Below are positions 13,823 to 52,502 of a DNA stretch of 64,000 nt, piece by piece. The notes under the pieces were generated by a model. It saw only the letters and a program-made list of their open reading frames with translations, was not told where the DNA came from and searched no databases. Every line of letters starts with the position of its first letter. Within the stretch, counting starts at the first letter, position 1. Source of the DNA: Deltaproteobacteria bacterium (lineage in GTDB: Bacteria > Myxococcota > Kuafuiibacteriia > Kuafuiibacteriales > Kuafuiibacteriaceae); NCBI GenBank assembly GCA_040218735.1, contig JAVJQW010000008.1, forward strand, positions 416,001 through 480,000, given 5' to 3'. A program made the position numbers and the translations under genes.

Positions 13823-15322
13823 CTAAGCGCTCTGAACCCAGCGCGCGACCGTTCTTCGATCGATGCCCAGGATGGCGCCGGCCTCTTTGAAGCTACCGGT
13901 GCGTTCGTAGACGAGGTTGACGTAGGCTCGCGTGACCTCATCCAGGGACATCCGGCCCTCGAGGACCTCGGCGCCGAAGCCGGGGGCAGTCGTGCGGCGT
14001 GGTTGGTACTGACGTCGGATCAGGACATTGCGGACGCATTGTTCGAGCTCCCGCACGTTGCCGGGCCACGTGTAGTCCGGCGGGATGTTCGCCGTGATGA
14101 AGCCGAAGACCTCGTCCGCGACGGCGGGCCCTTCGTCCGCTCCGGCGATCCGGATGGCCAAGAAGAGGACGAGGTCTTCGAGCTCGTCGATGTCGTCACG
14201 CAGACGGTCGACCAGCGGTGGTGTCTCCAGGACGTCCGCGCACAGGCGGTAGTACAGATCCTCCCGGAACCGCTCGTCGAGCATTCGGGCCTCGAGGTCC
14301 CGATGCGTTGCGGCGAGGATCTTTCCCGAGAAGGGGCGCGGTGTAGCGTCACCGACGCGCGAGTACGACCGCGTCTGTAACAACCGCAACAGCTTCACCT
14401 GGAGTGAGGGGTCGAGGTCTCCGATCTCGTCGAGGAAGATCGCGCCGGTCTCGGGGACGACGTCCAAGAACCCGGCGCGGTCCGCCGCGGCCCCGGTGAA
14501 GGCACCTCTTGCGTGTCCGAACAGCTCCGACTCCAACAGTGTGGGCGCGAGCGCCGCGACATTGATCGGCACGAAGCGGCCATCGATCGGGCCTGGGAAC
14601 GACTTCGTCTTCGGGTCGAATGCGAGATACCCAGACAGTGCGATCGCGCGGGCCACCAACTCCTTGCCCGTGCCGGACGGCCCAAGGACGAGCGTGGGGG
14701 TGTCGCTCATCCTGGCGTACATCGAACGGTGATGGCGTCGGAGATCGTGCGTGAAGATCGAGCGCCAGATATCGGAGCGCAGGCGCGCCGTGGGCCGTGA
14801 GCTGCCGATGACGTGGGTGAACACATGGTGGAACGCGCGACGGATCTGGAACAGCGTCGAGTACAGGTGGGGGAGCTCGTCGGGGGTGACGAGGTTGGTC
14901 TGCACGAGCAGAGCGACCGCGTCGCGTTCGAAGTTGTCGTACCCGCCCGCGCGGAGCCTCGATGTGGCGTGCTCCGACGCCATCGTCAGCTCGGTGAGCG
15001 CGACTTCGTTGCGCGAGTAGAGCGCGTACCGCGCCACGTCGAGATAGAGAGCTCGGTCTTCGTCGGAGGGGGGACGCGCAGGGTCGTAGCGCGCGCGGAG
15101 GGTCTGCGTCGTGCTCCAGACGACATCGTCGACACGGAAGGCGTTCTCGCTCGGCGCACCCCCGAGGGCTGATCGGTAGCGCCACAGGCCGGCCCCCTGG
15201 ACGAAGTCGGCTCCGAGCAGCCTTCGCTCGAGCGCCACCCGCTCTTCGAGGAACGGGTTCGCGGTGGCGAGCCCGGCGATCAGTCGCGCGCGCTCCCGCG
15301 CGTCTTCCGACGGAAACAGCAT
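13823..15322 (-). CDS. Sigma54-dependent enhancer-binding protein with unrecognised N-terminal domain
   Basis: Walker A GPSGTGKE, ESELFGHARGAFTGA, Walker B FLDEIGD, FREDLYYRL, WPGNVRELE, C-terminal HTH. Confidence 0.92.
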   Translation of the reverse strand: MLFPSEDARERARLIAGLATANPFLEERVALERRLLGADFVQGAGLWRYRSALGGAPSENAFRVDDVVWSTTQTLRARYDPARPPSDEDRALYLDVARYALYSRNEVALTELTMASEHATSRLRAGGYDNFERDAVALLVQTNLVTPDELPHLYSTLFQIRRAFHHVFTHVIGSSRPTARLRSDIWRSIFTHDLRRHHRSMYARMSDTPTLVLGPSGTGKELVARAIALSGYLAFDPKTKSFPGPIDGRFVPINVAALAPTLLESELFGHARGAFTGAAADRAGFLDVVPETGAIFLDEIGDLDPSLQVKLLRLLQTRSYSRVGDATPRPFSGKILAATHRDLEARMLDERFREDLYYRLCADVLETPPLVDRLRDDIDELEDLVLFLAIRIAGADEGPAVADEVFGFITANIPPDYTWPGNVRELEQCVRNVLIRRQYQPRRTTAPGFGAEVLEGRMSLDEVTRAYVNLVYERTGSFKEAGAILGIDRRTVARWVQSA

Positions 15323-15402: not shown

Positions 15403-15418
15403 TGGCACGACCGGTGCT
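15403..15418 (+). promoter_or_regulatory. Sigma54 -24/-12 promoter
   Basis: TGGCACG-ACCG-GTGCT matches TGGCACG-N4-TTGCW with one mismatch; divergent from a GAFTGA-containing EBP. Confidence 0.8.
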
Positions 15419-41831: not shown

Positions 41832-43883
41832 CTACTCGATGGACTTCAGCGCGCGCACGCACGCCGCGAGGCCTTCGACGTCGGCGCTCATCTCGCTCGC
41901 CTCGATCCTGCGGAGGAGGCGGGTGCGCGCGGGGCCGTCGGGGCGGGACTTCGCGGCGCGCCGGAGCGCGTCGCCGAGCGCGGCGACGCGGGTGAGGTCG
42001 GCCGGCGCCGCGCGGGCGGCGGAGAGGGCGCGGTCGACCTCGGGGAATCGGTTCGACTCGGCGGGGCGCTTGCGGCCGCCCACGCGGGCGTCGTTGCCCG
42101 AGCCGTGCGCTCGGCCGTCGTTGCCCGAGCCGTTCGCTCGGCCGTCGCCTCGCGCGGCGTTCGCTTGGCCGTCGCCGTGACCGCCGCTCGCATCGCCGTC
42201 GCCGTGACCGCCGCTCGCATCGCCATCGCCTCGGGCGGCGTTCGCTCGGCCGTCGCCTCGGGCGGCGTTCGCTTGGCCGTCGCCGTGACCGCCGCTCGCA
42301 TCGCCGTCGCCGTGACCGCCGCTCGCATCGCCGTCGCCTCGGGCGGCGTTCGCTCGGCCGTCGCCGTGACCGCCGCTCGCATCGCCGTCGCCGTGACCGC
42401 CGCTCGCATCGCCGTCGCCTCGGGCGCCGTTCGCGCCCTCCCGGCGCGGGCCGTTGGCTTCGCGGTCGCTCCTGCCTGCGCCGACATCCCCGCCGCTCAC
42501 CGCTCGCACCGCGTCTTGGTCACGGCGTTCGGCGTCGAGCGCGCGCGCCTCGTTCGCCGTGCCGCGGCCGACGTCGTTCGCGATCGCGCTGCCGTTCGCG
42601 TCTTCTTCGCCCACCCGGCCGCGTGGCGCGACGCGAGGCCCTGGCGCGGCTGCGCTCTGCGTCGACGGCGCGGCCGCCTCCTCCGCACCCCCCCGCGGCC
42701 ACACCGCGAACCCCACGCCGGCGGCGACCGCCAGCGCCCCCGCCGCGAGGATCCACCGCCCCGCCGGGCCTGGCGCGTCGCGCACGACGCTCGCCATCTG
42801 GGCGTCGAGCATGTCCGGCGTGTCGACGGGGTTCGTCGCGGTCGCGTCGAGGTTCGCGAGGAGCGGCGTGGGATCGGGATCCGTCACGCCTGGATCCGGG
42901 CTCACGTCGACGATCTGCGAGATCACCGCGTAGATCGTCGTCCCCCGCGCGCCCCCGAGCTCACGCAGCAGCGGCCGCGCTGCGTCCGCCAGCTCGGCGG
43001 CGCTCGCGTAGCGCTCCGCCGGATCGATCGCGAGCGCCCGCGCCACCACGTCATCCAGCGGCAGCGGCAACCCTTCGCGTGCGTCACTCGGCTTCGGCCT
43101 CGGTCCCCCGAGGATCCGCCCCGTCACGCGCGGCAGCGCGTTCGAAGCCAACCGCAGCGGCGGCTTGTAGGCGCGCGCCGGGCGCCCGTCCGCGTCGACG
43201 ATGAACGCTCGCGCCGCCGTGATCAGCTCGAAGAGGATTGCGCCGAGCCCGAAGACGTCGCTCCGCGTGTCCGCGCGCTCACCGCGCACTTGCTCCGGCG
43301 ACGCGTAATGCAGCGACCCGACGATACGCCCGACCGTCGTCGCGTCGCGCCCGGTGGGCGTGAGGATCCGCGCCACGCCGAGGTCGAGCAGCTTCACGTA
43401 CGCGCGTCCGCCGCGCCGCACGAACATCACGTTGCTCGGCTTCAGGTCGCGGTGCACGACCCCCTGCTCGTGGATGTAGTGCACCGCAGAGCACAGCTCG
43501 TCGAAGACACGCTCCGCCTCGGCGGCGTCGAGGTGCTCGTCGCGCTGTGAGCACTGCTTGAGCACGCGCGCGAGCGGGACGCCGTCCACGTAATCCATCG
43601 CGAGGTACGCGCGCGACTCGGTCATCGAGAACCCGAGCGGCCGCACGATGCTCGGGTGATCGAGTCGCGCGAGCAGCTCCGCCTCCTGCTCGAACCGCTC
43701 GCGGACGACCGCGCCGATCTCGAGCACGCGCGGATGCAACACCTTCAGCGCGACCTGACGCCCGAGCGCGTCCGCGCTCTCGTCGGTCGCCAGCCACACT
43801 TCACCGAACCCTCCGGATCCGAGGCGGCGCAGCGTCACGTAGCGGTCGTCGATCCGCGTGCCCGGCGCGATCTTCTCGGTCAT
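41832..43883 (-). CDS. Membrane Ser/Thr protein kinase with repeat-rich periplasmic region
   Basis: LGSGGFGEVW, VALK, HRDLKPSN, DLG, GSLHYASPE; TM WILAAGALAVAAGVGFAVW. Confidence 0.92.
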   Translation of the reverse strand: MTEKIAPGTRIDDRYVTLRRLGSGGFGEVWLATDESADALGRQVALKVLHPRVLEIGAVVRERFEQEAELLARLDHPSIVRPLGFSMTESRAYLAMDYVDGVPLARVLKQCSQRDEHLDAAEAERVFDELCSAVHYIHEQGVVHRDLKPSNVMFVRRGGRAYVKLLDLGVARILTPTGRDATTVGRIVGSLHYASPEQVRGERADTRSDVFGLGAILFELITAARAFIVDADGRPARAYKPPLRLASNALPRVTGRILGGPRPKPSDAREGLPLPLDDVVARALAIDPAERYASAAELADAARPLLRELGGARGTTIYAVISQIVDVSPDPGVTDPDPTPLLANLDATATNPVDTPDMLDAQMASVVRDAPGPAGRWILAAGALAVAAGVGFAVWPRGGAEEAAAPSTQSAAAPGPRVAPRGRVGEEDANGSAIANDVGRGTANEARALDAERRDQDAVRAVSGGDVGAGRSDREANGPRREGANGARGDGDASGGHGDGDASGGHGDGRANAARGDGDASGGHGDGDASGGHGDGQANAARGDGRANAARGDGDASGGHGDGDASGGHGDGQANAARGDGRANGSGNDGRAHGSGNDARVGGRKRPAESNRFPEVDRALSAARAAPADLTRVAALGDALRRAAKSRPDGPARTRLLRRIEASEMSADVEGLAACVRALKSIE
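42123..42419 (-). repeat. About eleven 27-bp coding repeats of two alternating types (GDGDASGGH and GDG(R/Q)ANAAR)
   Basis: Direct reading of DNA and translation. Confidence 0.88.
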
Positions 43884-44779
43884 GGCATCCGCGAGATCTC
43901 GAAGCGATCGATCCCGAACCGCCGCGCCCCGCGCCGCACCTGCACGATCCCCGCGCCGCCCAACACCCCCGCCGCCAGCAGCTGCTCACGCGCCTTGTGG
44001 ATCGCGACGTTCAGGCCGTTCGAATCCATGCGCAGCATCTTCGACAGCGCGTCACGCTTCACCCAACCGCGCTCGTCTTCGGGGCGGTCCTGCTCCTTCT
44101 CACGCAGCCGCGCGAGCGTCAGGAGCACGTACCCGTGCCACGCGGGCTCGAGCGCGGTGAGGCGACCGCGGTGGACGACGTCGATCTGCACGCGCTCCTC
44201 GTCGCGGCTCACCGCGAAGCGCAGCGTGATCGTATCGATCGTCGGCGACGACTGGAACGCCGGCGTGCCTTCGAACAGCTCCGGCAGGTGCACCGTCCAC
44301 GTGTGGCCGCCCGCCGTGACGGTGTCGCCGTCCTCGACCGCGCCTTCGTCGTCGCCTTCGATGCGCCAGTCGCCCTGGTTGTCCTGGAAGATCGAGAGGT
44401 CCGGGTGCTCGGCGTCGGGCAGCACGAGGAGCCCGTCGCGGCCCGCGGCGATCACGCCGTCGGCGCGCTCGGCGAAGACACTCGGCGCGTCGGCCTCCGT
44501 GACCTCCCACGCTTCGTCGACGTCGCCGAACGCGAGCCGCGAGCCGACGTCGATCGTCACGGTCTCCCCGGCGACGAGCATGTTGCCGTCGACGAAGGTC
44601 CCGTTGCGGCTCCCGAGATCGCGGATCTCCCACGCGCCGTCGCCCCAGCGCACGAGCGCGTGTTCGAGGGAGACACACGCGGTGTCGATCGTGAGCCCCG
44701 CGTCCGAAGCACGTCCGACGCGGAGCCGCGAGGTCACGTGTGCCTCGCGTCCGTCCCGCACGCTTCGGAGTGTCGCCAC
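43880..44779 (-). CDS. FHA-domain protein with C-terminal winged-helix-like region
   Basis: VGR, VSLEHA, DLGSRNGTFVDG; C-terminal LNVAIHKAREQL; ATGA coupling to the kinase. Start GTG 44779 or ATG 44788. Confidence 0.85.
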   Translation of the reverse strand: MATLRSVRDGREAHVTSRLRVGRASDAGLTIDTACVSLEHALVRWGDGAWEIRDLGSRNGTFVDGNMLVAGETVTIDVGSRLAFGDVDEAWEVTEADAPSVFAERADGVIAAGRDGLLVLPDAEHPDLSIFQDNQGDWRIEGDDEGAVEDGDTVTAGGHTWTVHLPELFEGTPAFQSSPTIDTITLRFAVSRDEERVQIDVVHRGRLTALEPAWHGYVLLTLARLREKEQDRPEDERGWVKRDALSKMLRMDSNGLNVAIHKAREQLLAAGVLGGAGIVQVRRGARRFGIDRFEISRMP

Positions 44780-44812
44780 GCGCGCCATGATAGCGCGTGA
44801 CGGCGACGTGGG

Positions 44813-45733
44813 TCAGTACTTCTCGGGGACGTAGAGGTTGTCGGGGAGCGTCTTGCGCTCGTAGTTGGGGTTGTGCTCACGCTCGGGGAGGATGACGTCC
44901 TCCTGCGGGACCTCGTCGTACGGGACCTGATCGAGGAGGTGACTGATGCAGTTGAGGCGCGCGCGCTTCTTGTCGTTCGCTTCGACGATCCACCACGGCG
45001 CCTCCGGGATGTTCGTCCGCTCGAGCATCTCCTCCTTCGCCTTCGTGTAGTCCTCCCAGCGGATGCGCGACTCGAGATCCATCGGGCTCAGCTTCCACTG
45101 CTTCATCGGATCGTGGATGCGCATCAGGAAGCGGTACTGCTGCTCCTGGTCGCTGATCGAGAACCAGTACTTCACGAGCTTGATCCCGGAGCGCACCAGC
45201 ATGCGCTCGAACTCCGGCACGTCGCGGAAGAACGTCTCGACTTCGTCGGGCGTCGCGAACCCCATCACGCGCTCGACGCCCGCGCGGTTGTACCAAGAGC
45301 GATCGAACAGGACCATCTCACCGCCCGAGGGGAGGTGCGGCACGTAGCGCTGGAAGTACCACGCCGTCTTCTCGCGCTCGCTCGGCGCGGGCAGCGCGAC
45401 CGTGCGACACACCCGCGGGTCGAGGCGCTGCGTGATGCGCTTGATGACGCCGCCCTTGCCGGCCGCGTCGCGCCCCTCGAAGAGGATGACGAGCTTGTAG
45501 CCGGTGTTCGCGACCCAGTCGTGCAGCTTCACGAGCTCGGACTGGAGCGTGAACAACGCCTGGAAGTACGTCCGCCGGTCGATCGCCGAGTGGTGCTCGG
45601 ACTTCAGCGCCGCATCGACGGCCGCCTCGCGCCGCCCGTCGGCGAGCTCGAGCTCGAACTCCTCGTCGAAGCTGTCGGCGAGCTCCTGCTGCACCCACTC
45701 GTGTACCTCGGAGCGCTTGGGATCTTCGGACAT
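44813..45733 (-). CDS. ppk2: Polyphosphate kinase 2
   Basis: FEGRDAAGKGGVIKR, WYFQRY, FDRSWYNRAGVERVMGF, WKLSPMD. Confidence 0.96.
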   Translation of the reverse strand: MSEDPKRSEVHEWVQQELADSFDEEFELELADGRREAAVDAALKSEHHSAIDRRTYFQALFTLQSELVKLHDWVANTGYKLVILFEGRDAAGKGGVIKRITQRLDPRVCRTVALPAPSEREKTAWYFQRYVPHLPSGGEMVLFDRSWYNRAGVERVMGFATPDEVETFFRDVPEFERMLVRSGIKLVKYWFSISDQEQQYRFLMRIHDPMKQWKLSPMDLESRIRWEDYTKAKEEMLERTNIPEAPWWIVEANDKKRARLNCISHLLDQVPYDEVPQEDVILPEREHNPNYERKTLPDNLYVPEKY

Positions 45734-45754
45734 GGGTGATTCATAGCGCCCGGG

Positions 45755-47125: not shown

Positions 47126-48529
47126 ATGGCCAACGAGACCCGCACCGAATCCGACAGCTTTGGACCCATCGAGGTCCCCGCCGACAAGTATTGGGGCGCG
47201 CAGACGCAACGTTCGCTCGAAAACTTCCGCATCGGCGAAGAGCACTTCCCGCGCATCTTCATCCGCGCGTACGGGATCGTGAAGCAATCGGCGGCGGATG
47301 TGAACGGGGCCGCCGGTCAGATCCCCGAGAAGTACCAGAAGGTCATCGCCGACGCCGCCCAGGAGGTTATTGACGGAAAGCTCGACGACAACTTCCCGCT
47401 CGTTGTCTGGCAGACCGGCAGCGGCACCCAGACCAATATGAACGTCAACGAGGTCATCGCGAACCGCGCCAACGAGATGCTCGGGATGGCGCTCGGCGCG
47501 AAGGACGGCGTGCACCCGAACGACCACGTCAACCGCGCGCAGTCCACGAACGACAGCTTCCCGACCGCCATGCACGTCGCCGCCGGACTCGCCGTGAAGG
47601 AGCAGCTCCTCCCCGAGCTCGACGCGCTCGCGAAGGTCTTCGAGGCGAAGGCCGACGAATTCAAGGACATCATCAAGATCGGCCGCACCCACCTGCAGGA
47701 CGCGACGCCGCTGTCGCTCGGGCAGGAGATCTCCGGCTGGGCCGCGCAGCTCCGTCACGCGATGGCCGCGGTCGAAGCGACGCTCCCGCAGATCTACGAG
47801 CTCGCGATGGGCGGCACCGCGGTGGGCACTGGCCTCAACACGGTCGAGGGGTACGCGGAGGGCGTCGCCGCGGCGATCGCGAAGCGCACCAACCTCCCGT
47901 TCGTCACCGCGCCGAACAAGTTCGCGGCGCTCGCCGGGCACGACGCGATCGTCGGCCTCTCCGGCGCGCTCAAGCAGGTCGCGTGCGCGATGATGAAGAT
48001 CGCAAACGACGTCCGCTGGCTCGCGAGCGGCCCGCGCTGCGGCCTCGGCGAGCTGCGCATCCCCGAGAACGAGCCCGGCAGCTCCATCATGCCCGGCAAG
48101 GTGAACCCGACGCAGTGCGAGGCGGTGACGATGCTGTGCTGCCGCGTCATCGGGAACGACGCCGGCATCGGCGTCGCCGGCTCGCAGGGCAACTTCGAGC
48201 TGAACGTCTACAAGCCGATGATGGTGCACTCGGTGCTCGAGTCGATCCGCATCCTCGGCGACGGCACGCGCTCGTTCCGCACCAACTGCGCCGAGGGCAT
48301 CGAGCCCAACCGCGAGCGCATCGACGCGCTGCTCCACGAGTCGCTGATGCTCGTCACGGCGCTCAACCCGCACATCGGCTACGACAAGGCCGCGCAGGTC
48401 GCGAAGAAGGCCTACAAAGAGGGCACGACCCTCGTGCAGGCCATCACCGCGCTCGGCTACATGGACGCCGACGAGTTCAAGCGCGTCGTGAAGCCCGAGC
48501 TGATGATCGGGCCCAAGCCGAAGTCCTGA
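47126..48529 (+). CDS. fumC: Class II fumarate hydratase
   Basis: [45 protein letters not shown]. Confidence 0.97.
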
Positions 48530-48541
48530 TCCGCGCGCCCC

Positions 48542-50908
48542 TCACGGGGCGTTGGCGAGCCCGTAGTTCAAGACGGTCGTGCTGTCCGCGTACCGCTGCG
48601 CGCTCGTCGATCCGAGCACGACCGAGATGACGTCCGCCGACCCGTCGTTCGCCGCGGCGACGAGGCAGGCGCCCGCGAGATCCGTCGTGCCGGTCTTCAC
48701 TCCGTAGGCCGACGCCATGAAGTTGCTGCTCTGGTTGCAGGTCTGCAGGCCGGTCCCGCGAAGGTGGCGGTTCGAGTTGCAGAAGGTTCGGAACACCGTC
48801 GTCGACGTCCCGCGCGACCAGCGCATCCGAGCCTCGGGCGTCGCGACGAGGTTTCGAAGCCTCCAGTCGGCGTTCAGCGCGAAGTCTGCGAGCCGCGCCA
48901 TGTCGCGCGCCGTCGAGTAGTGCGCGCACGCGGTGACGTCGGGTTGGAACCCGTTGCACCCTGCGATGAAGTCCTCCGGATCGCGCCCGTGGGGGGATGT
49001 GAAGCTCGTGTCGTCGAGGCCGAGCTGCCGCGCGCGGGCGTTCATGCGGGCGACGAACGCAGCCTCGCTCCCGGCGACCCGGCGCGCGAGCACGATGGCG
49101 GCGTCGTTCCCCGACGGCAACATGAGGCCGATCAGCAGGTTGCCGAGCGTGACGACGTCACCGGATCGGAACCCGACTACGCTCGTCGTCCCGACGATCG
49201 CGGGGTCCACCTCGGCGGCACGGACACGCGCGGTCGACGACAGGGTGACCTCACCGCGGTTGACCGCCTCGTACACGAGCAGCGCGGTCATGATCTTCGT
49301 CGTGCTCGCCATGGGCACCCGTTTGTCGGGGTTCTTGGCCCCGATGATGCGGCCCGTGGCGCGGTTCATCACGATGGCCGCATCGGCGGTGAGGCTCGGT
49401 AACGCCGGTTCGATGTCACCCGCGAAGACGGCGCCCGCGGCGTTCTTGCCGTCCACCGACTCCGAGGGCGCGCCGATCGCCAGGTTGTCCTTTCCGTCGT
49501 TGTCGAAGTCACCCGCGACCAACGCGTCGCCGAAGCCGTCGCCGTCTTCCTCCACGCCACCGAAGACGCGCTGCGTGAGGTAGTAGGCGCGCGGCGGGCT
49601 CAGGCTCGCGTTGCTCCCGAAGAACACAAACGTCGCGCCGTTGTCCGTGCGGCCTTCGATGTCCTCGCCCGGCGCACCGACGGCGAGATCGTCGAAGCCA
49701 TCGTCGTCGAAGTCGCCCACGGCGAGCGCGCGGCCGAACTCGTCACCGGCTTCGTTGCTCGCGTCACCGGAGTTCTGCGTCAGCCATTCGACGTTCGCCG
49801 GCAGCAGCCCCTGGGAGGCGCCGCGGAAGATCGCAATCATGCCACTGTTCGACTGTCCGCTGCTGTCCTTGCTCGGAACTCCGATCGCGAGATCGTCGAA
49901 GCCGTTCGCGTTGAAGTCACCGATCGCCAGCACACTCCCGAAGCGGTCGTCAGCGTCTCGGGTTTGGCTCGGGACGGACAGCATGGTGAACACCTCGGTC
50001 TGCGCCGGAAGCAAGCCCGCCGCCGAACCGTGGAACGCCACGACCATGCCGGCGTCCGTCGCGCTCCCGAAGTTCTGGTCGGGGACCCCGACGATCAGAT
50101 CGTCGAAGGGGCTCCCGTTGATGTTGCCCGCCGCCAACGCGACGCCGAAGTGATCGCCGGATTCGTTGGTGTGTCCGGGCACCGAGCTCTGCGTGAAGTA
50201 CTCGGTGCTCGCGGAGTAGAGGCCGCCCGATGCGCCGTAGAAGACCGCGACCGCTCCCGCGCCGAAGACGCCCGAGACACCTTCGTTCGGTGCGCCCACG
50301 GCGAGGTCGTCACAGCCCGCGCCGTTGAAGTTCCCGGCCGCCAGCGCGTGGCCGAAACCGTCGTTGGTCTCGGGGCTCATCCCCGAGACCGAAGCCTGGG
50401 AGTGGCTGGAAGCGCCTTCGAGGCCCGAGCTCGAGCCGTGGAAGACAAAGACGCGACCGGCCCCCACTTGGCCGCCCACGGTGCGGCCGGGCGCGCCGAT
50501 CGCGAGATCCGGGAAGTTGTCGCAGCCGAACTCGCCGACGACCGCCGACGCCCCGAAGCGATCGTACGCCTCCCGAAGCATCCCGAAGTGCGTGGGGTCG
50601 AGCCATTGGACGCCGCCGGATCCGGGCCCCGTCGGTCCACCGTAGAAGACCATCACGTGCCCCGTGTCGGTCCCGCCGTAGTCTTCTTGGGGGGCCGCGA
50701 CGACGAGATCGTCGAACCCGTCGAGGTCGAAGTCCGCCGAGGCGAGTGTGTCTCCGAAGCGGTCGTAGGCCTCGACGGTGCCGCCGCCGTCGTCTTGGGT
50801 GAGCACTTGATCGCGATAGCCGCCGACGTGGGCCGAATGGGTGTCGACGTCGAGCGGGGCGCCGCAGGCGGTGGCGGCGATGGCGAGGAGGCAAAGGTGA
50901 CGTGTCAT
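48542..50908 (-). CDS. Lipoprotein: 7 FG-GAP repeats fused to an S11 D-Ala-D-Ala carboxypeptidase domain
   Basis: Lipobox ATAC; seven FG..GAP/GVP blades; SxxK (ASTTK), SxN (SGND), PHG, KTG (KTGTT). Confidence 0.9.
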   Translation of the reverse strand: MTRHLCLLAIAATACGAPLDVDTHSAHVGGYRDQVLTQDDGGGTVEAYDRFGDTLASADFDLDGFDDLVVAAPQEDYGGTDTGHVMVFYGGPTGPGSGGVQWLDPTHFGMLREAYDRFGASAVVGEFGCDNFPDLAIGAPGRTVGGQVGAGRVFVFHGSSSGLEGASSHSQASVSGMSPETNDGFGHALAAGNFNGAGCDDLAVGAPNEGVSGVFGAGAVAVFYGASGGLYSASTEYFTQSSVPGHTNESGDHFGVALAAGNINGSPFDDLIVGVPDQNFGSATDAGMVVAFHGSAAGLLPAQTEVFTMLSVPSQTRDADDRFGSVLAIGDFNANGFDDLAIGVPSKDSSGQSNSGMIAIFRGASQGLLPANVEWLTQNSGDASNEAGDEFGRALAVGDFDDDGFDDLAVGAPGEDIEGRTDNGATFVFFGSNASLSPPRAYYLTQRVFGGVEEDGDGFGDALVAGDFDNDGKDNLAIGAPSESVDGKNAAGAVFAGDIEPALPSLTADAAIVMNRATGRIIGAKNPDKRVPMASTTKIMTALLVYEAVNRGEVTLSSTARVRAAEVDPAIVGTTSVVGFRSGDVVTLGNLLIGLMLPSGNDAAIVLARRVAGSEAAFVARMNARARQLGLDDTSFTSPHGRDPEDFIAGCNGFQPDVTACAHYSTARDMARLADFALNADWRLRNLVATPEARMRWSRGTSTTVFRTFCNSNRHLRGTGLQTCNQSSNFMASAYGVKTGTTDLAGACLVAAANDGSADVISVVLGSTSAQRYADSTTVLNYGLANAP

Positions 50909-50921
50909 GGTTCGCCCGCTG

Positions 50922-50937
50922 AGCACCGACCGTGCCA
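50922..50937 (-). promoter_or_regulatory. Sigma54 -24/-12 promoter
   Basis: Minus strand TGGCACG-GTCG-GTGCT, ending 13 nt before the ATG at 50908. Confidence 0.75.
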
Positions 50938-51068
50938 GCGGGATGGCGTGGTGGAACGCCGCGATTGGGCGCTCCGGGGCGTCGCGCGCACGTGCGGCGG
51001 GCGTGCGCGCACGACGCGTCGGCACGAACTTCTGACCGATCCTTTTCGTCGGGGCGGTCGTATCGTAC

Positions 51069-52502
51069 GTGTCGTCGATGCTGCGCGCGCTGTGTACGAA
51101 GGAGCTTCGGCTCGCGCTGCGTTCGCGACGGGTGGCTTGGGCGGGGGCCGTGATGTTCGCCTTGTGCGGGGTCGCGGCCGCGTCCGGCACGCTCGAGCAC
51201 CAGGCCCGCGCCGAAGAGCACCGCCGCCTCGTCGAGTTCGCGGAGGCCTCGTTCGCGGGCCAGCGCGCCGACCACCCCCACACGATCGCGCACAACGGGT
51301 ACGTCGTATCGCGCCCGCCCGCGCCGCTCGGTCACCTCGACGCGGGGATCGAGACCGCGTACGGCCGGTGGCTGCGCCTCGACGCGCACCAGACCCGGCC
51401 GCTCTCCGGCACCCGCACCACCGAGATCGCCCGCGGGCCGGGGGCGGGGCGCTTCGATCTCGGGTTGCTGCTCGCGGTGTTCGGGCCGGTGGTGATCGTG
51501 CTGCTGGTGTTCGATCAGGTCGCCCGCGAGCGGAACAACGGGACCCTCGCGATGCTGTCGTCCGCCGGTCTGGGCCTCGGGCCGTTCGTGGTGTCGAAGG
51601 CGTTCGGCGCCGCGGTGCGATCGGGGTTGGCGATCGGCGTGCCCGCGCTCGTCGCCACGGTGCTCGCCACGCTCGCGGTGGGCACGATCGACTTCGCCCG
51701 CCTGCTCGCATGGTTCGCCGCGCACGCCGTGGCGCTCGCGGTGTGGGGGGCGATCGTCCTCGCGATCTCGGCGTTCAGCGCGTCGGCGCGCCAGGCGTTG
51801 GTCAGCGGCTTCGCGGTGTGGGGGACGCTCGCGCTGTTCGTGCCGCCGGTGTCGGGTGCGGTGTCGCAGCTCGTCGCGCCGGTGGCGCCGCCGGGGGAGC
51901 AGATGGTGAGGGCGGCCGAGTGGGCCGAGAGCGCGCACGCGCAGAGTGAAGCGCTCCGCGATCGTGCGCTGGCCGAGATTCGTCGCCGGCACCCGGAGTG
52001 GGACGGCAAGGGCGAGCCGCCGGAGGTCGTGGACGCCGTGATGCTCGCGCTCGCCGACCGCGACGCGACCTCCAAGATGAACGCGATGTTCGCCGCGCTC
52101 GACGCCGAGCAGGATCGCCAGGAGCGCTGGGCCGCCGCGCTCGCGTTTGTTTCACCGAGCGGGCTCGCGAGCCTCGCGTCCAGCGCGATCGCCGGCAGCG
52201 ACCTCGCGCACATGCGCTTCGCTTTCCTGCACTACGAGGCGTATCGGCAGGAGCTGATGGGTTGGTTCAACGCGTGGTGGGCGCAGGAGGGCCGCGGCGG
52301 GTTCGAGGCGTACGGCGAGGAGAAGAAGTTCGACGACTTCGAAGCCGCGCCCCGGCCGACGGTGCCGCGCGTCGACCTCCCGTTCTCGCTGACGCGCGCC
52401 GCGATGTCCGTGGCGCTGCTCGCGGTGGCGTTTGTGATCGGCGCGCTGGCCTTCGCCGCTTCGGCGCGGCGGGCCCTCGCCACCTCGGGAGGTCGAGCGT
52501 GA
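51069..52502 (+). CDS. ABC transporter permease (DUF3526-type)
   Basis: [45 protein letters not shown]. Confidence 0.85.

What the first reader, a model, noticed from the sequence alone, without database searches (positions are those of the whole stretch)
48542..50937. Integrin-alpha-like 7-blade propeller fused to a D,D-carboxypeptidase, lipid-anchored and sigma54-controlled
Seen: lipobox; exactly seven FG-GAP blades with DFDxDGFDDL-type Ca2+ loops; then an S11 PBP domain with all three catalytic motifs (STTK, SGN, KTG), two Cys-pair insertions, and no PBP5 C-terminal stalk or amphipathic anchor; plus a dedicated -24/-12 promoter. Established: DacA/PBP5 enzymes trim peptidoglycan pentapeptides, seven FG-GAP repeats make the integrin-alpha head, and myxobacterial development relies heavily on sigma54. 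I do not know this fusion as a characterised architecture. Inference: an adhesin-guided wall-editing enzyme for prey attack (surface or vesicle delivered), sporulation remodelling or beta-lactam trapping. Best candidate here for an undescribed system.
Basis: partly seen in the sequence, partly recalled or inferred. Interest (0 to 1): 0.78.

Follow-up and report, generated by a model that had tools for sequence, protein, structure and literature searches.

The report
Propeller-fused cell-wall peptidase lipoprotein
This gene encodes a lipid-anchored enzyme that joins an integrin-like seven-blade propeller to an apparently active cell-wall D-Ala-D-Ala peptidase, a rare but recurring and unstudied combination that probably sits behind a sigma-54 promoter right next to its start codon.

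Summary
Window 48542-50908 (-) is one 788-aa gene. It has a lipobox signal (Cys15) and exactly seven FG-GAP blades, four with canonical Ca2+ loops. An 11-residue linker leads to a Peptidase_S11 domain with intact STTK/SGN/KTG motifs, two Cys-bracketed insertions and no PBP5 stalk or amphipathic helix. The AlphaFold2 model is confident (pLDDT 94, pTM 0.91). The propeller matches integrin-alpha heads and the enzyme matches Streptomyces K15 DD-transpeptidase (TM 0.91).

The fusion is not a misassembly: an independent 9.9-kb metagenome contig spans it. It is rare but recurrent, with at least 33 protein clusters, from "Deltaproteobacteria", Verrucomicrobiales and Planctomycetota where named. Variants include the reversed domain order and M4-protease triple fusions. 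Only 2 of 401 sampled genomes of the phylum carry it. This genome's only other S11 gene is a catalytically dead fused paralog.

The -24/-12 motif is at chance level within the window. Genome-wide, however, 107 of 268 such motifs sit 13-15 nt before a start codon (controls 1-10), and this gene is one of them. A leaderless sigma-54 promoter is therefore likely.

The function is inferred: an accessory, conditionally expressed DD-peptidase whose propeller replaces the PBP5 stalk as spacer or targeting module. Whether it acts on the cell's own wall or on foreign wall is unresolved. It is a new variant of a known kind.

The parts
48542..50908 (-). Coding sequence of the 788-aa FG-GAP propeller / S11 DD-peptidase lipoprotein (stop codon 48542-48544).
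   Evidence: GC3 is 0.89.
50864..50908 (-). Signal peptide with lipobox, MTRHLCLLAIAATA|C (residues 1-15).
   Evidence: The pattern is recalled from PROSITE. Cys at this position recurs in homologs.
49415..50812 (-). Seven-blade FG-GAP beta-propeller, residues 33-498. Ca2+-type loops are canonical in blades 1, 5, 6 and 7.
49382..49414 (-). Short inter-domain linker IEPALPSLTAD (residues 499-509).
   Evidence: A whole-model pTM of 0.91 suggests a fixed domain arrangement.
48551..49402 (-). Peptidase_S11 (class A low-molecular-weight PBP) catalytic domain, residues 503-786.
   Evidence: K15 TMt 0.91, rmsd 1.9 A.
49295..49306 (-). SxxK motif STTK (Ser535 nucleophile, Lys538).
49106..49114 (-). 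SxN motif SGN (residues 599-601).
48689..48697 (-). KTG motif (residues 738-740).
48926..48958 (-). Cys-bracketed insertion 1, C651-NGFQPDVTA-C661. It marks the module-fused S11 clade.
   Evidence: Both Cys are present in all 26 fused rows examined (the window protein, 24 homologs and the dead paralog) and in P0254-P0256. The columns are gaps in 29 of the 30 ordinary S11 rows.
48737..48781 (-). Cys-bracketed insertion 2, C710-x13-C724.
   Evidence: C710 is present in 14 of the 25 catalytically intact fused rows, including the window protein.
50923..50937 (-). Sigma-54-type -24/-12 element TGGCACggtcgGTGC, with 14 nt between its last base and the ATG.
50984..51010 (.). Perfect inverted repeat GCGCGCACG-N9-CGTGCGCGC, 47-73 nt upstream of the -24 element. 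It is a candidate enhancer (UAS) site and is untested.
   Evidence: No chance estimate was made, and G+C-rich DNA yields such repeats easily.

Best explanation
The gene encodes an exported, lipid-anchored, accessory low-molecular-weight penicillin-binding protein.

Shown:
- It has a lipobox signal.
- A rigid seven-blade Ca2+-type FG-GAP propeller follows.
- A short linker joins the propeller to a catalytically intact S11 domain of the single-domain, K15-like kind.
- Two Cys-bracketed insertions lie between the SxN and KTG motifs.

Inferred mechanism:
- After Lgt/Lsp processing the protein is tethered by Cys15. Residue +2 is Gly, so I expect default sorting to the outer membrane.
- Residues 16-32 form a disordered tether.
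- The propeller takes the place of the PBP5 stalk and amphipathic helix, acting as the spacer, holder or targeting module.
- Ser535 attacks the D-Ala-D-Ala end (carboxypeptidase) or a 4-3 cross-link (endopeptidase or transpeptidase) of peptidoglycan stem peptides.

The enzyme is not the housekeeping one. The genome has a separate S13/PBP4 homolog, and S11 enzymes are uncommon in the phylum.

Expression is probably gated by an enhancer-binding protein acting through a sigma-54 promoter. That promoter lies so close to the ATG that the mRNA would be leaderless or carry at most about 3 nt of leader.

Whether the substrate is the producer's own sacculus or foreign wall material is not resolved. I lean to the producer's own envelope.
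For: Domains and motifs.

Fold: pLDDT 94.1 and pTM 0.91. K15 DD-transpeptidase gives TMt 0.91 at 34% identity, PBP6 gives TMt 0.66, and ~440-450-residue integrin alpha chains give TMt 0.72-0.75.

Catalytic residues are under selection. All 25 catalytically intact fused rows, including the window protein, keep Ser, Lys, Ser, Asn and K-T-G.

The fusion is real. One 9937-bp contig of run X2 covers 48400-51300 with 46 differences and no gaps. The same architecture is found in G083.

The coupling recurs:
- 27 of the 119 other clusters listed carry FG-GAP plus S11, and adds 6 more.
- The reversed order S11>FG-GAP occurs in Planctomycetota MAGs.
- M4-protease triple fusions exist.
- On the S11 tree, all N-terminal-propeller forms except the long-branch P0092 fall in one 37-row clade (SH-aLRT 96). 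The four strict reversed-order forms lie outside it.

Accessory status:
- PF00768 hits the own genome only twice, at this gene and at a paralog.
- One S13 homolog is present.
- S11 passes its cut-off in 35 of 401 sampled genomes of the phylum.
- The fusion occurs only in G000 and G083.

Lean toward an endogenous envelope role. The paralog P0351 is also a lipobox protein, and its catalytic motifs are destroyed (D/T, N-A-N, Y-F-G).

Promoter. 107 of 268 genomic -24/-12 motifs are followed at 13-15 nt by the start of a long high-GC3 ORF. The five controls gave 1/160, 5/254, 1/164, 8/352 and 10/307. This gene sits at offset 14. The genome encodes about 90 strong Sigma54_activat hits.
Against: There is no biochemical, expression or localisation evidence. 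No RNA data were available.

Sequence cannot separate carboxypeptidase, endopeptidase and transpeptidase activity. The best NCBIfam equivalog scores are far below their cut-offs (112 bits against 765).

The outer-membrane assignment rests on sorting rules I recall, not on a test.

Within the window the promoter motif alone is at chance level. It has one mismatch in the -12 element. The G083 ortholog has no such motif. No enhancer-binding protein gene flanks the gene; the nearest in the window is about 34 kb away.

Relatives fused to an M4 protease with an FTP propeptide look extracellular. The propeller's close relatives are attached to many other hydrolase domains. Both facts favour the foreign-substrate rival.

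I could not obtain model coordinates, so the position of the active site relative to the propeller faces, and whether the Cys pairs can bond, are unknown.
Confidence: 0.55

Rival explanations
1. Foreign-wall enzyme. The protein is displayed on the cell surface, shed on outer-membrane vesicles or secreted. The propeller binds a component of other cells' envelopes or of wall debris. The S11 domain edits that peptidoglycan, either to weaken prey or to help digest necromass.
For: - The fusion and S11 itself are patchy in the phylum.
- Sister proteins carry DUF4382, an FTP propeptide and an M4 protease ahead of the propeller and S11 (P0132, P0029).
- Close propeller relatives are fused to PF01551, PF01400, PF00082, PF13582/13583/13688, PF00188 and PF18962. 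From memory these are M23, astacin, S8, reprolysin-like, CAP and the T9SS tail.
- Cys-bracketed loops are conserved.
- In other S11 clade members, DUF642 or an Ig-like module replaces the propeller.
- The DNA turns up in sponge, aquaculture and biofloc metagenomes.
Against: - In the three loci examined, none of the flanking ORFs I scanned with Pfam is an identifiable immunity protein.
- The family also occurs in Verrucomicrobiales and Planctomycetota MAGs, lineages I do not know as predators (from memory).
- A DD-carboxypeptidase is not lytic by itself (established knowledge).
- A lipobox normally gives a periplasm-facing anchor.
- A dead paralog fits a regulatory role in the cell's own wall machinery better.
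Confidence: 0.25
2. Docking module. The propeller docks the peptidase to a specific protein partner, such as a synthase, an outer-membrane protein or the dead paralog. The enzyme would then be part of a regulated wall-remodelling complex used during a developmental or stress programme such as sporulation.
For: - Integrin-type propellers are protein-binding platforms (established knowledge).
- The genome holds a catalytically dead fused paralog that is also a lipoprotein.
- The promoter is probably sigma-54 dependent.
- The domain arrangement looks rigid (pTM 0.91).
Against: - Gene neighbourhoods reveal no partner, and there is no synteny among the three loci.
- The paralog carries no comparable promoter motif: it is not among the sites listed.
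- The condition of expression is unknown.
Confidence: 0.12
3. Beta-lactam sink, sensor or hydrolase rather than a wall-editing enzyme.
For: - S11 domains are acylated by beta-lactams (established knowledge).
- Weak hits to Beta-lactamase2 (50.8 bits) and to class A beta-lactamase models (28.6 bits against a cut-off of 200).
Against: - All beta-lactamase scores are far below their cut-offs, and the S11 score dominates.
- The closest folds are DD-peptidases.
- There is no signalling domain and no regulator next to the gene.
Confidence: 0.04

Closest known systems
Streptomyces K15 DD-transpeptidase (PDB 1SKF, 1ES4 and mutants), a single-domain S11 enzyme
   Same: It is the best structural match to residues ~504-785: TMt 0.91, rmsd 1.9-2.0 A, 33-34% identity. 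It also gives a full-length sequence alignment. Like the window protein it has the catalytic domain only, with no PBP5-type C-terminal domain.
   Different: K15 has no propeller and no lipobox. The window protein carries two Cys-bracketed insertions. Its second motif is SGN, whereas K15 has SGC as I recall (the entry title 'C98N mutant' is consistent with this). K15 is reported as a strict transpeptidase (from memory); the activity here is unknown.
E. coli PBP5/PBP6 (DacA/DacC) and relatives, the textbook S11 DD-carboxypeptidases
   Same: They give the top sequence matches: PBP6 3it9 at E 7e-28 and the DacC, DacD and DacA NCBIfam models. All three catalytic motifs are shared. The fold matches at TMt 0.65-0.67.
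   Different: There is no PBP5_C beta-sandwich stalk and no C-terminal amphipathic helix. Anchoring is N-terminal through a lipid plus the propeller. Scores are far below the equivalog cut-offs (99-112 bits against 610-765). The region between SxN and KTG is 36 aa longer.
Integrin alpha-subunit head and bacterial FG-GAP propellers
   Same: Seven FG-GAP blades, DxDxDGxxD Ca2+ loops and N-terminal strand closure. TMt is 0.72-0.75 to ~440-450-residue alpha5 and alphaV chains.
   Different: There is no beta-subunit partner, thigh or calf domain. Only 4 of the 7 loops are canonical. The propeller is covalently joined to an enzyme.
Bdellovibrio predatory DacB-type DD-endopeptidases (Bd0816, Bd3459; from memory, not searched here)
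   Same: They are a precedent for a low-molecular-weight PBP used against another cell's wall, which is what the foreign-wall rival proposes.
   Different: They belong to family S13, not S11. They have no propeller and are paired with a self-protection protein. I found no comparable protein among the neighbouring ORFs scanned here.
Other module-fused S11 proteins of the same clade (S11+DUF642, S11+Ig-like, M4+FG-GAP+S11)
   Same: They share the S11 subclade and the C651/C661 insertion.
   Different: The partner modules or the domain order differ. As far as my searches show, none has been characterised.

Membership tests
Peptidase S11 / class A low-molecular-weight PBP (Pfam PF00768) | Profile match above the curated cut-off | tested here: met
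   178.2 bits against 27.6, residues 503-767.
Peptidase S11 / class A low-molecular-weight PBP (Pfam PF00768) | Catalytic motifs SxxK, SxN and KTG | tested here: met
   STTK 535-538, SGN 599-601 and KTG 738-740. They are conserved in all 25 catalytically intact fused rows.
Peptidase S11 / class A low-molecular-weight PBP (Pfam PF00768) | Fold of solved S11 enzymes | tested here: met
   K15 TMt 0.91, PBP6 TMt 0.66.
Peptidase S11 / class A low-molecular-weight PBP (Pfam PF00768) | Penicillin binding and DD-peptidase activity | not testable with these tools
   Needs Bocillin labelling and muropeptide assays.
PBP5/DacA-type DD-carboxypeptidase (E. coli paradigm) | C-terminal beta-sandwich domain (PBP5_C; accession PF07943 from memory) | tested here: not met
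   No such hit. The protein ends 21 residues after the S11 match, inside the fold's last helix.
PBP5/DacA-type DD-carboxypeptidase (E. coli paradigm) | C-terminal amphipathic membrane-anchor helix | tested here: not met
   The C-terminus ...VLNYGLANAP aligns to the end of K15. The anchor here is an N-terminal lipobox.
PBP5/DacA-type DD-carboxypeptidase (E. coli paradigm) | NCBIfam equivalog cut-off (DacA, DacC, DacD) | tested here: not met
   98.6 against 694, 111.9 against 765, and 102.5 against 610 bits.
Integrin-alpha-type FG-GAP seven-blade propeller | Seven FG-GAP repeats forming a closed propeller | tested here: met
Integrin-alpha-type FG-GAP seven-blade propeller | Ca2+-binding DxDxDGxxD hairpin loops | tested here: met
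   4 of 7 blades are canonical, comparable to the four Ca2+ blades of integrins as I recall, and 3 are degenerate. Metal binding itself was not tested.
Integrin-alpha-type FG-GAP seven-blade propeller | Ligand or partner binding on the propeller face | not testable with these tools
Sigma-54 (-24/-12) promoter | GG and GC dinucleotides 10 nt apart within TGGCAC-N5-TTGC | tested here: met
   TGGCACggtcgGTGC matches 9 of the 10 specified bases.
Sigma-54 (-24/-12) promoter | Occurrence beyond chance | tested here: met
   The window alone gives no signal. Genome-wide, 107 of 268 motifs lie 13-15 nt before a start codon, against 1-10 in five controls, and this site is at offset 14.
Sigma-54 (-24/-12) promoter | Cognate enhancer-binding protein or upstream activating sequence | tested here: inconclusive
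   No EBP gene is adjacent. A perfect 9-nt inverted repeat lies 47-73 nt upstream, but its significance was not assessed.
Sigma-54 (-24/-12) promoter | Mapped transcription start and RpoN dependence | not testable with these tools
   No RNA run was listed.
Bacterial lipoprotein | Lipobox with Cys after a hydrophobic stretch and a basic N-terminal region | tested here: met
   MTRHLCLLAIAATAC passes the pattern (pattern from memory). Acylation was not tested.

The most novel reading that the evidence does not exclude
Propeller-S11 proteins, together with their M4-protease, DUF642 and Ig-like fused relatives, form an unrecognised family of exported cell-wall-targeting effectors. A Ca2+-dependent binding module steers a DD-peptidase onto foreign peptidoglycan, either living prey or necromass. 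In this genome the enzyme belongs to a large regulon driven by enhancer-gated sigma-54 promoters that abut start codons and therefore make leaderless mRNAs. I found no description of that promoter arrangement.
Probability: 0.2. Interest if true: 0.7.

Novelty: new variant of a known kind. Interest (0 to 1): 0.5.

Why it matters
Low-molecular-weight PBPs are usually described as a catalytic domain on a stalk anchored in the inner membrane. Here the stalk is replaced by a rigid integrin-like propeller on a lipid anchor.

The same coupling of domains appears in both orders and in at least three named lineages. That argues the propeller does something for the peptidase, such as positioning it, recognising a substrate or docking a partner.

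The system is tractable. It has one active enzyme, one natural dead paralog and a confident structural model. It could show how wall-editing enzymes are aimed.

The promoter result may matter more broadly. If sigma-54 promoters really start transcription at the start codon of about a hundred genes in this genome, and in many relatives, that would join an enhancer-dependent polymerase to leaderless translation. My literature searches found no description of this.

Tried and rejected
**Named-genome range.** The single genome-contig scan used FG-GAP-only peptide patterns. None of its 80 loci holds an S11 domain in an ORF of 200 aa or more. It therefore gave no named-genome range for the fusion. 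Matches that seemed to extend past residue 494 (L006, L042, L050) were repeat matches.

**Expression.** No RNA holder was listed.

**Promoter conservation among strains.**
- The -24 and -12 bases are unchanged in runs X2, X5 and X8.
- Variants fall at 50930 (spacer, X2) and at 50918 (all four runs).
- At 1-3% divergence this is expected by chance, so it is uninformative.

**Sigma-70 scan.** The scan of 48300-51300 found 0 sites.

**Synteny.**
- The neighbours differ in all three loci. In the window they are fumC and ABC-2/DUF3526 permeases. In G083 they are an alpha/beta hydrolase, an AAA ATPase and an AstE-like gene. At the paralog they are a DsbA-like gene and a kinase.
- The AstE-like genes of the two loci share only 31% identity over 96 aa.

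**Long open frames around S11 hits.** Those in G112, G229, G334, G382 and G250 hold no propeller.

**My own mislabels.**
- My phmmer labelling called P0252, P0257 and P0258 'noFG'. Pfam shows FG-GAP-type repeats in P0252 and P0258, and the precomputed list shows PF01839 in P0257.
- P0258 is a further S11>FG-GAP form that lies inside the main clade.

**Export-signal enrichment.**
- Among the 107 start-abutting sigma-54 sites, 14 have a lipobox, against a background of 5.6-7.2%.
- 41 of 107 look signal-like, against 20.5-29.9%.
- This is only about twofold. My lipobox regex also required Cys at position 19 or later, so it misses the target itself. I draw no conclusion from it.

**Failed or empty steps.**
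- The first genome-wide motif script used a wrong regex and returned nothing; it was corrected.
- The earlier-findings index returned nothing.
Active-site orientation and Cys-Cys distances could not be measured.
Full report
**1. The gene**

The longest open frame on the minus strand runs 48542-51295. Its first 129 codons are not protein-like, and they overlap the start of a divergent gene (51069-52502, +). The first sensible start is the ATG at 50908, which gives 788 residues. GC3 of the frame is 0.89, typical of this roughly 70% G+C genome.

**2. Anatomy**

Pfam finds FG-GAP (163 bits, E 8e-49, six significant stretches) and Peptidase_S11 (178 bits against a cut-off of 27.6, residues 503-767). 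The weaker beta-lactamase-family hits are what any penicillin-binding fold gives. NCBIfam's best models are DacC, DacD and DacA, but at 99-112 bits against cut-offs of 610-765, so the protein is not an equivalog of any named PBP.

- **Propeller repeats.** A regex finds seven 'FG...loop' units at residues 51, 118, 185, 254, 323, 391 and 459. Four of them (blades 1, 5, 6, 7) fit the strict Ca2+-loop pattern. Three are degenerate: EFGCDNFPD, NFNGAGCDD and NINGSPFDD.
- **Catalytic motifs.** STTK is at 535-538, SGN at 599-601 and KTG at 738-740.
- **Insertions.** Two lie between SGN and KTG, each bracketed by Cys: C651-x9-C661 and C710-x13-C724. Against E. coli PBP6 this region is 88 residues instead of 52.
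- **N-terminus.** MTRHLCLLAIAATAC passes the lipoprotein pattern (pattern from memory).
- **C-terminus.** There is no PBP5 C-terminal domain. The chain ends inside the last helix of the S11 fold.

**3. Structure**

I ran AlphaFold2 on an 89-sequence alignment of fused homologs, FG-GAP-only proteins and S11-only proteins. It gave mean pLDDT 94.1 and pTM 0.91. Only residues 1-6 and 13-31 are disordered.

The model has 28 strands between residues 33 and 498, which is seven four-stranded blades. The N-terminal strand 33-36 completes the last blade. An 11-residue linker follows, and then the PBP fold runs from 510 to 786. A pTM this high for a two-domain protein suggests a fixed arrangement of the domains.

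Foldseek against the PDB returns two kinds of match:
- ~440-450-residue integrin alpha chains, at TMt 0.72-0.75;
- Streptomyces K15 DD-transpeptidase at TMt 0.91, rmsd 1.9-2.0 A and 33-34% identity, and PBP6/PBP5 penicillin-binding domains at TMt 0.65-0.67.

I could not get the coordinates. The orientation of the active site and the Cys-Cys distances therefore remain open.

**4. Is the fusion real, and how common is it?**

Four independent metagenome runs hold close relatives of this DNA. In run X2 a single 9937-bp contig covers 48400-51300 with 46 differences and no gaps. The domain junction is therefore not an assembly artefact.

*Word-indexed search of 5.8 billion proteins.* 27 of the 119 other clusters listed carry both PF01839 and PF00768. 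A search with the S11 part alone adds six more: P0131, P0252, P0257, P0258, P0260 and P0261.

*Exhaustive search of 1.84 billion 50%-identity representatives.* About eleven of the best 150 are such fusions (classified):
- P0003, P0004, P0017, P0018, P0024, P0131 and P0033;
- the long forms P0132 and P0036;
- the reversed forms P0176 and P0170.

This is a lower bound, because propeller-only proteins crowd the list.

*Names given by sources:*
- 'serine hydrolase [Deltaproteobacteria bacterium]', in the window protein's own 90% cluster;
- 'FG-GAP repeat protein [Deltaproteobacteria bacterium]', which is the G083 protein;
- 'hypothetical protein' from Verrucomicrobiales;
- 'hypothetical protein' from Planctomycetota, for the reversed order;
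- 'D-alanyl-D-alanine carboxypeptidase' from JGI.

*Architectures confirmed by Pfam:*
- FG-GAP then S11;
- S11 then FG-GAP (P0176, P0258);
- DUF4382-FTP-M4-FG-GAP-S11 (P0132) and FTP-M4-FG-GAP-S11 (P0029);
- S11 then DUF642 (P0259);
- S11 then an Ig-like domain (P0255).

*Within the phylum.* I searched 401 sampled genomes of the window's phylum. A full-length match was found only in the window's genome (two copies) and in G083, a member of the same family at 51-53% identity. S11 itself passes its cut-off in 35 of the 401 genomes. The five other S11 hits lying in open frames of 600 aa or more have no propeller.

**5. Evolution of the S11 part**

I built a quick maximum-likelihood tree of 74 S11 domains. 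I left out 56 of the 96 unfused hits, keeping the first 40 in file order. I also left out ten further rows: near-identical or short members of the P0009 and P0013 clusters (P0122-P0129), and the fragments P0260 and P0261.

- All N-terminal-propeller forms except P0092, a long branch, fall in one clade of 37 rows (SH-aLRT 96).
- That clade also holds the five M4-type long forms (their own clade, support 99), the DUF642 forms and the Ig-like forms.
- The four Planctomycetota-type reversed forms lie just outside it.

Three rows that my script labelled 'noFG' do carry FG-GAP-type repeats: P0252, P0257 and P0258. P0258 has the reversed order and lies inside the clade.

The C651/C661 pair is present in every member of this clade that I examined. 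Those two columns are gaps in 29 of the 30 ordinary S11 rows.

The picture is an S11 subclade that repeatedly exchanges an accessory module, most often an FG-GAP propeller, on either side of the enzyme.

**6. Place in this genome**

PF00768 hits the 11.6-Mb genome only twice: at this gene and at G000:C29:17626-19836. The second is a 784-residue paralog, 34% identical, with the same architecture. Its hydrophobic stretch also ends in a Cys (LGLWAC).

The paralog's catalytic positions read Asp and Thr in place of Ser and Lys, N-A-N in place of S-G-N, and Y-F-G in place of K-T-G. It is a pseudo-enzyme that has kept the C651/C661 pair.

The genome also has one S13 (PBP4-type) gene. The window gene is therefore the only predicted active S11 enzyme, and it is an accessory one.

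None of the neighbours is wall-related:
- a convergent fumarase, 12 bp beyond the stop codon;
- two divergent ABC-2/DUF3526 permeases, 160 bp upstream;
- further out, PPK2, an FHA protein and a Ser/Thr kinase.

The G083 and paralog loci have unrelated neighbours. The gene stands alone.

**7. The promoter**

TGGCACggtcgGTGC lies at 50923-50937 and matches 9 of the 10 specified bases. Taken alone this is unimpressive:
- The window holds 3 sites with at most one mismatch, against 2.26 expected.
- It holds 32 sites with at most two mismatches, against 44 expected.
- The G083 ortholog has TGGCATcggccTTTC with no GC, at an incompatible distance.
- No enhancer-binding protein gene is adjacent.
- Only 14 nt separate the motif from the ATG, so a normal leader is impossible.

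I then laid the whole genome and asked where such motifs sit.
- There are 268 motifs with GG and GC fixed and at most one mismatch. Of these, 107 are followed at exactly 13, 14 or 15 nt (36, 52 and 19 sites) by an ATG or GTG. Each such start opens an ORF of at least 100 codons with GC3 of at least 0.82. The background is about 2.3 per offset.
- Changing the spacer to 4, 6 or 7 nt gives 1/160, 5/254 and 1/164.
- Scrambling either half gives 8/352 and 10/307.
- The downstream genes are diverse.

The target, at offset 14, is a member of this class. So is a second site in the window, at 15403-15417 (+), offset 13, which lies beside an enhancer-binding protein gene at 14240-14713 (-).

The genome has about 90 strong Sigma54_activat hits. 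The exact pattern followed by N13-15 and ATG is found in 78 of 101 sampled genomes of the phylum. Some genomes have up to 15-16 copies, against 0-2 (mostly 0) for the reversed-pattern control.

My inference is that sigma-54 holoenzyme in this lineage commonly starts transcription at or within about 3 nt of the start codon. The gene studied here is very probably one such unit: about 95 observed one-mismatch sites against about 7 expected at these offsets.

A perfect 9-nt inverted repeat lies 47-73 nt upstream and is a candidate activator site. I did not estimate its chance expectation.

I found no paper describing leaderless sigma-54 promoters in myxobacteria:
- The search returned 0 papers.
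- I saw only the listing of 20 of the 100 papers found, and none was on this topic.
- In PMC12754779 I read only the two passages that mention 'leaderless', which concern a sigma-A promoter.

**8. What it most likely does**

The following are shown:
- an export signal with a lipobox;
- a rigid propeller;
- an S11 domain whose catalytic residues are conserved across all 25 catalytically intact fused rows, including the window protein.

The following are inferred:
- lipid anchoring, probably in the outer membrane because residue +2 is Gly (sorting rules from memory);
- the propeller standing in for the PBP5 stalk as spacer, holder or targeting module;
- attack on D-Ala-D-Ala termini or on cross-links of peptidoglycan;
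- conditional expression through sigma-54.

The choice between the cell's own wall and foreign wall is open. These points favour the cell's own envelope:
- the lipobox;
- the dead paralog, since pseudo-enzymes are typical regulators of a cell's own wall hydrolases;
- the family's presence in Verrucomicrobiales and Planctomycetota MAGs.

These points favour a foreign substrate:
- the patchy distribution;
- the M4-protease and FTP-propeptide fusions;
- the many hydrolase domains attached to close propeller relatives.

I put the cell's own envelope reading at 0.55, foreign wall at 0.25, partner docking within a developmental programme at 0.12, and beta-lactam roles at 0.04.

**9. Novelty and verdict**

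Both domains belong to well-known families, and the protein passes their membership tests. It fails the tests for the PBP5/DacA architecture.

The combination is unstudied. A 2008 survey of prokaryotic serine-protease architectures that includes DD-peptidases lists FG-GAP only with trypsin (PMC2605481; passages read). My two literature searches for the combination found nothing relevant. Supplementary files of papers were closed, so a mention hidden in a table cannot be excluded.

This is a new variant of a known kind, not a new system. The promoter analysis adds an unexpected genome-wide feature that deserves its own follow-up.

Noticed in passing
Whole genome G000. In the window: 50923-50937 (-) and 15403-15417 (+).: Sigma-54-type -24/-12 motifs sit at a fixed 13-15 nt before start codons. 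This holds for 107 of 268 motifs, against 1-10 in five spacing or scrambling controls. It implies about a hundred leaderless or near-leaderless sigma-54 transcription units. The exact pattern plus N13-15 plus ATG occurs in 78 of 101 sampled genomes of the phylum, with up to 16 copies per genome. It is rare in the f9 family genomes. I found no description in the papers searched.
   Followed up: partly
G000:C29:17491-19845 (+), which is L093:5492-7846.: A 784-aa paralog has the same propeller-plus-S11 architecture and a lipobox-like Cys. Its SxxK, SxN and KTG motifs are all destroyed while the C651/C661 pair is kept, so it is a natural pseudo-enzyme. A DsbA-like thioredoxin gene lies just upstream.
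   Followed up: partly
Proteins P0132, P0029, P0020, P0036 and P0038 (metagenomes).: These 1342-1469-aa proteins chain (DUF4382)-FTP propeptide-M4 thermolysin-like protease-seven FG-GAP repeats-S11 peptidase. That puts a protease and a wall peptidase on one propeller. Their S11 domains form one clade.
   Followed up: partly
Window 14240-14713 (-) and 15403-15417 (+).: A Sigma54_activat (enhancer-binding protein) gene lies next to a divergent sigma-54 motif. That motif is 13 nt before the ATG of a 211-aa His-rich ORF beginning METNHAHNHHSHRR. This is a likely activator-and-target pair.
   Followed up: no
Window 50984-51010.: A perfect inverted repeat GCGCGCACG-N9-CGTGCGCGC lies in the 160-bp divergent intergenic region between the peptidase gene and the ABC-2 permease gene. 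It is a possible activator binding site.
   Followed up: no
Proteins P0004, P0005, P0009, P0010, P0012, P0013 and P0015 (those with source names are from Verrucomicrobiales).: These forms of the fusion lack the lipobox Cys. They carry an extra C-terminal extension of roughly 75-80 residues, with a conserved ...RYRIEKSTDLxDWExLETGIQG... stretch and no Pfam match.
   Followed up: no
Window 41832-45754 (-).: A Ser/Thr protein kinase, an FHA-domain protein and a PPK2 polyphosphate kinase lie in a row on the minus strand.
   Followed up: no
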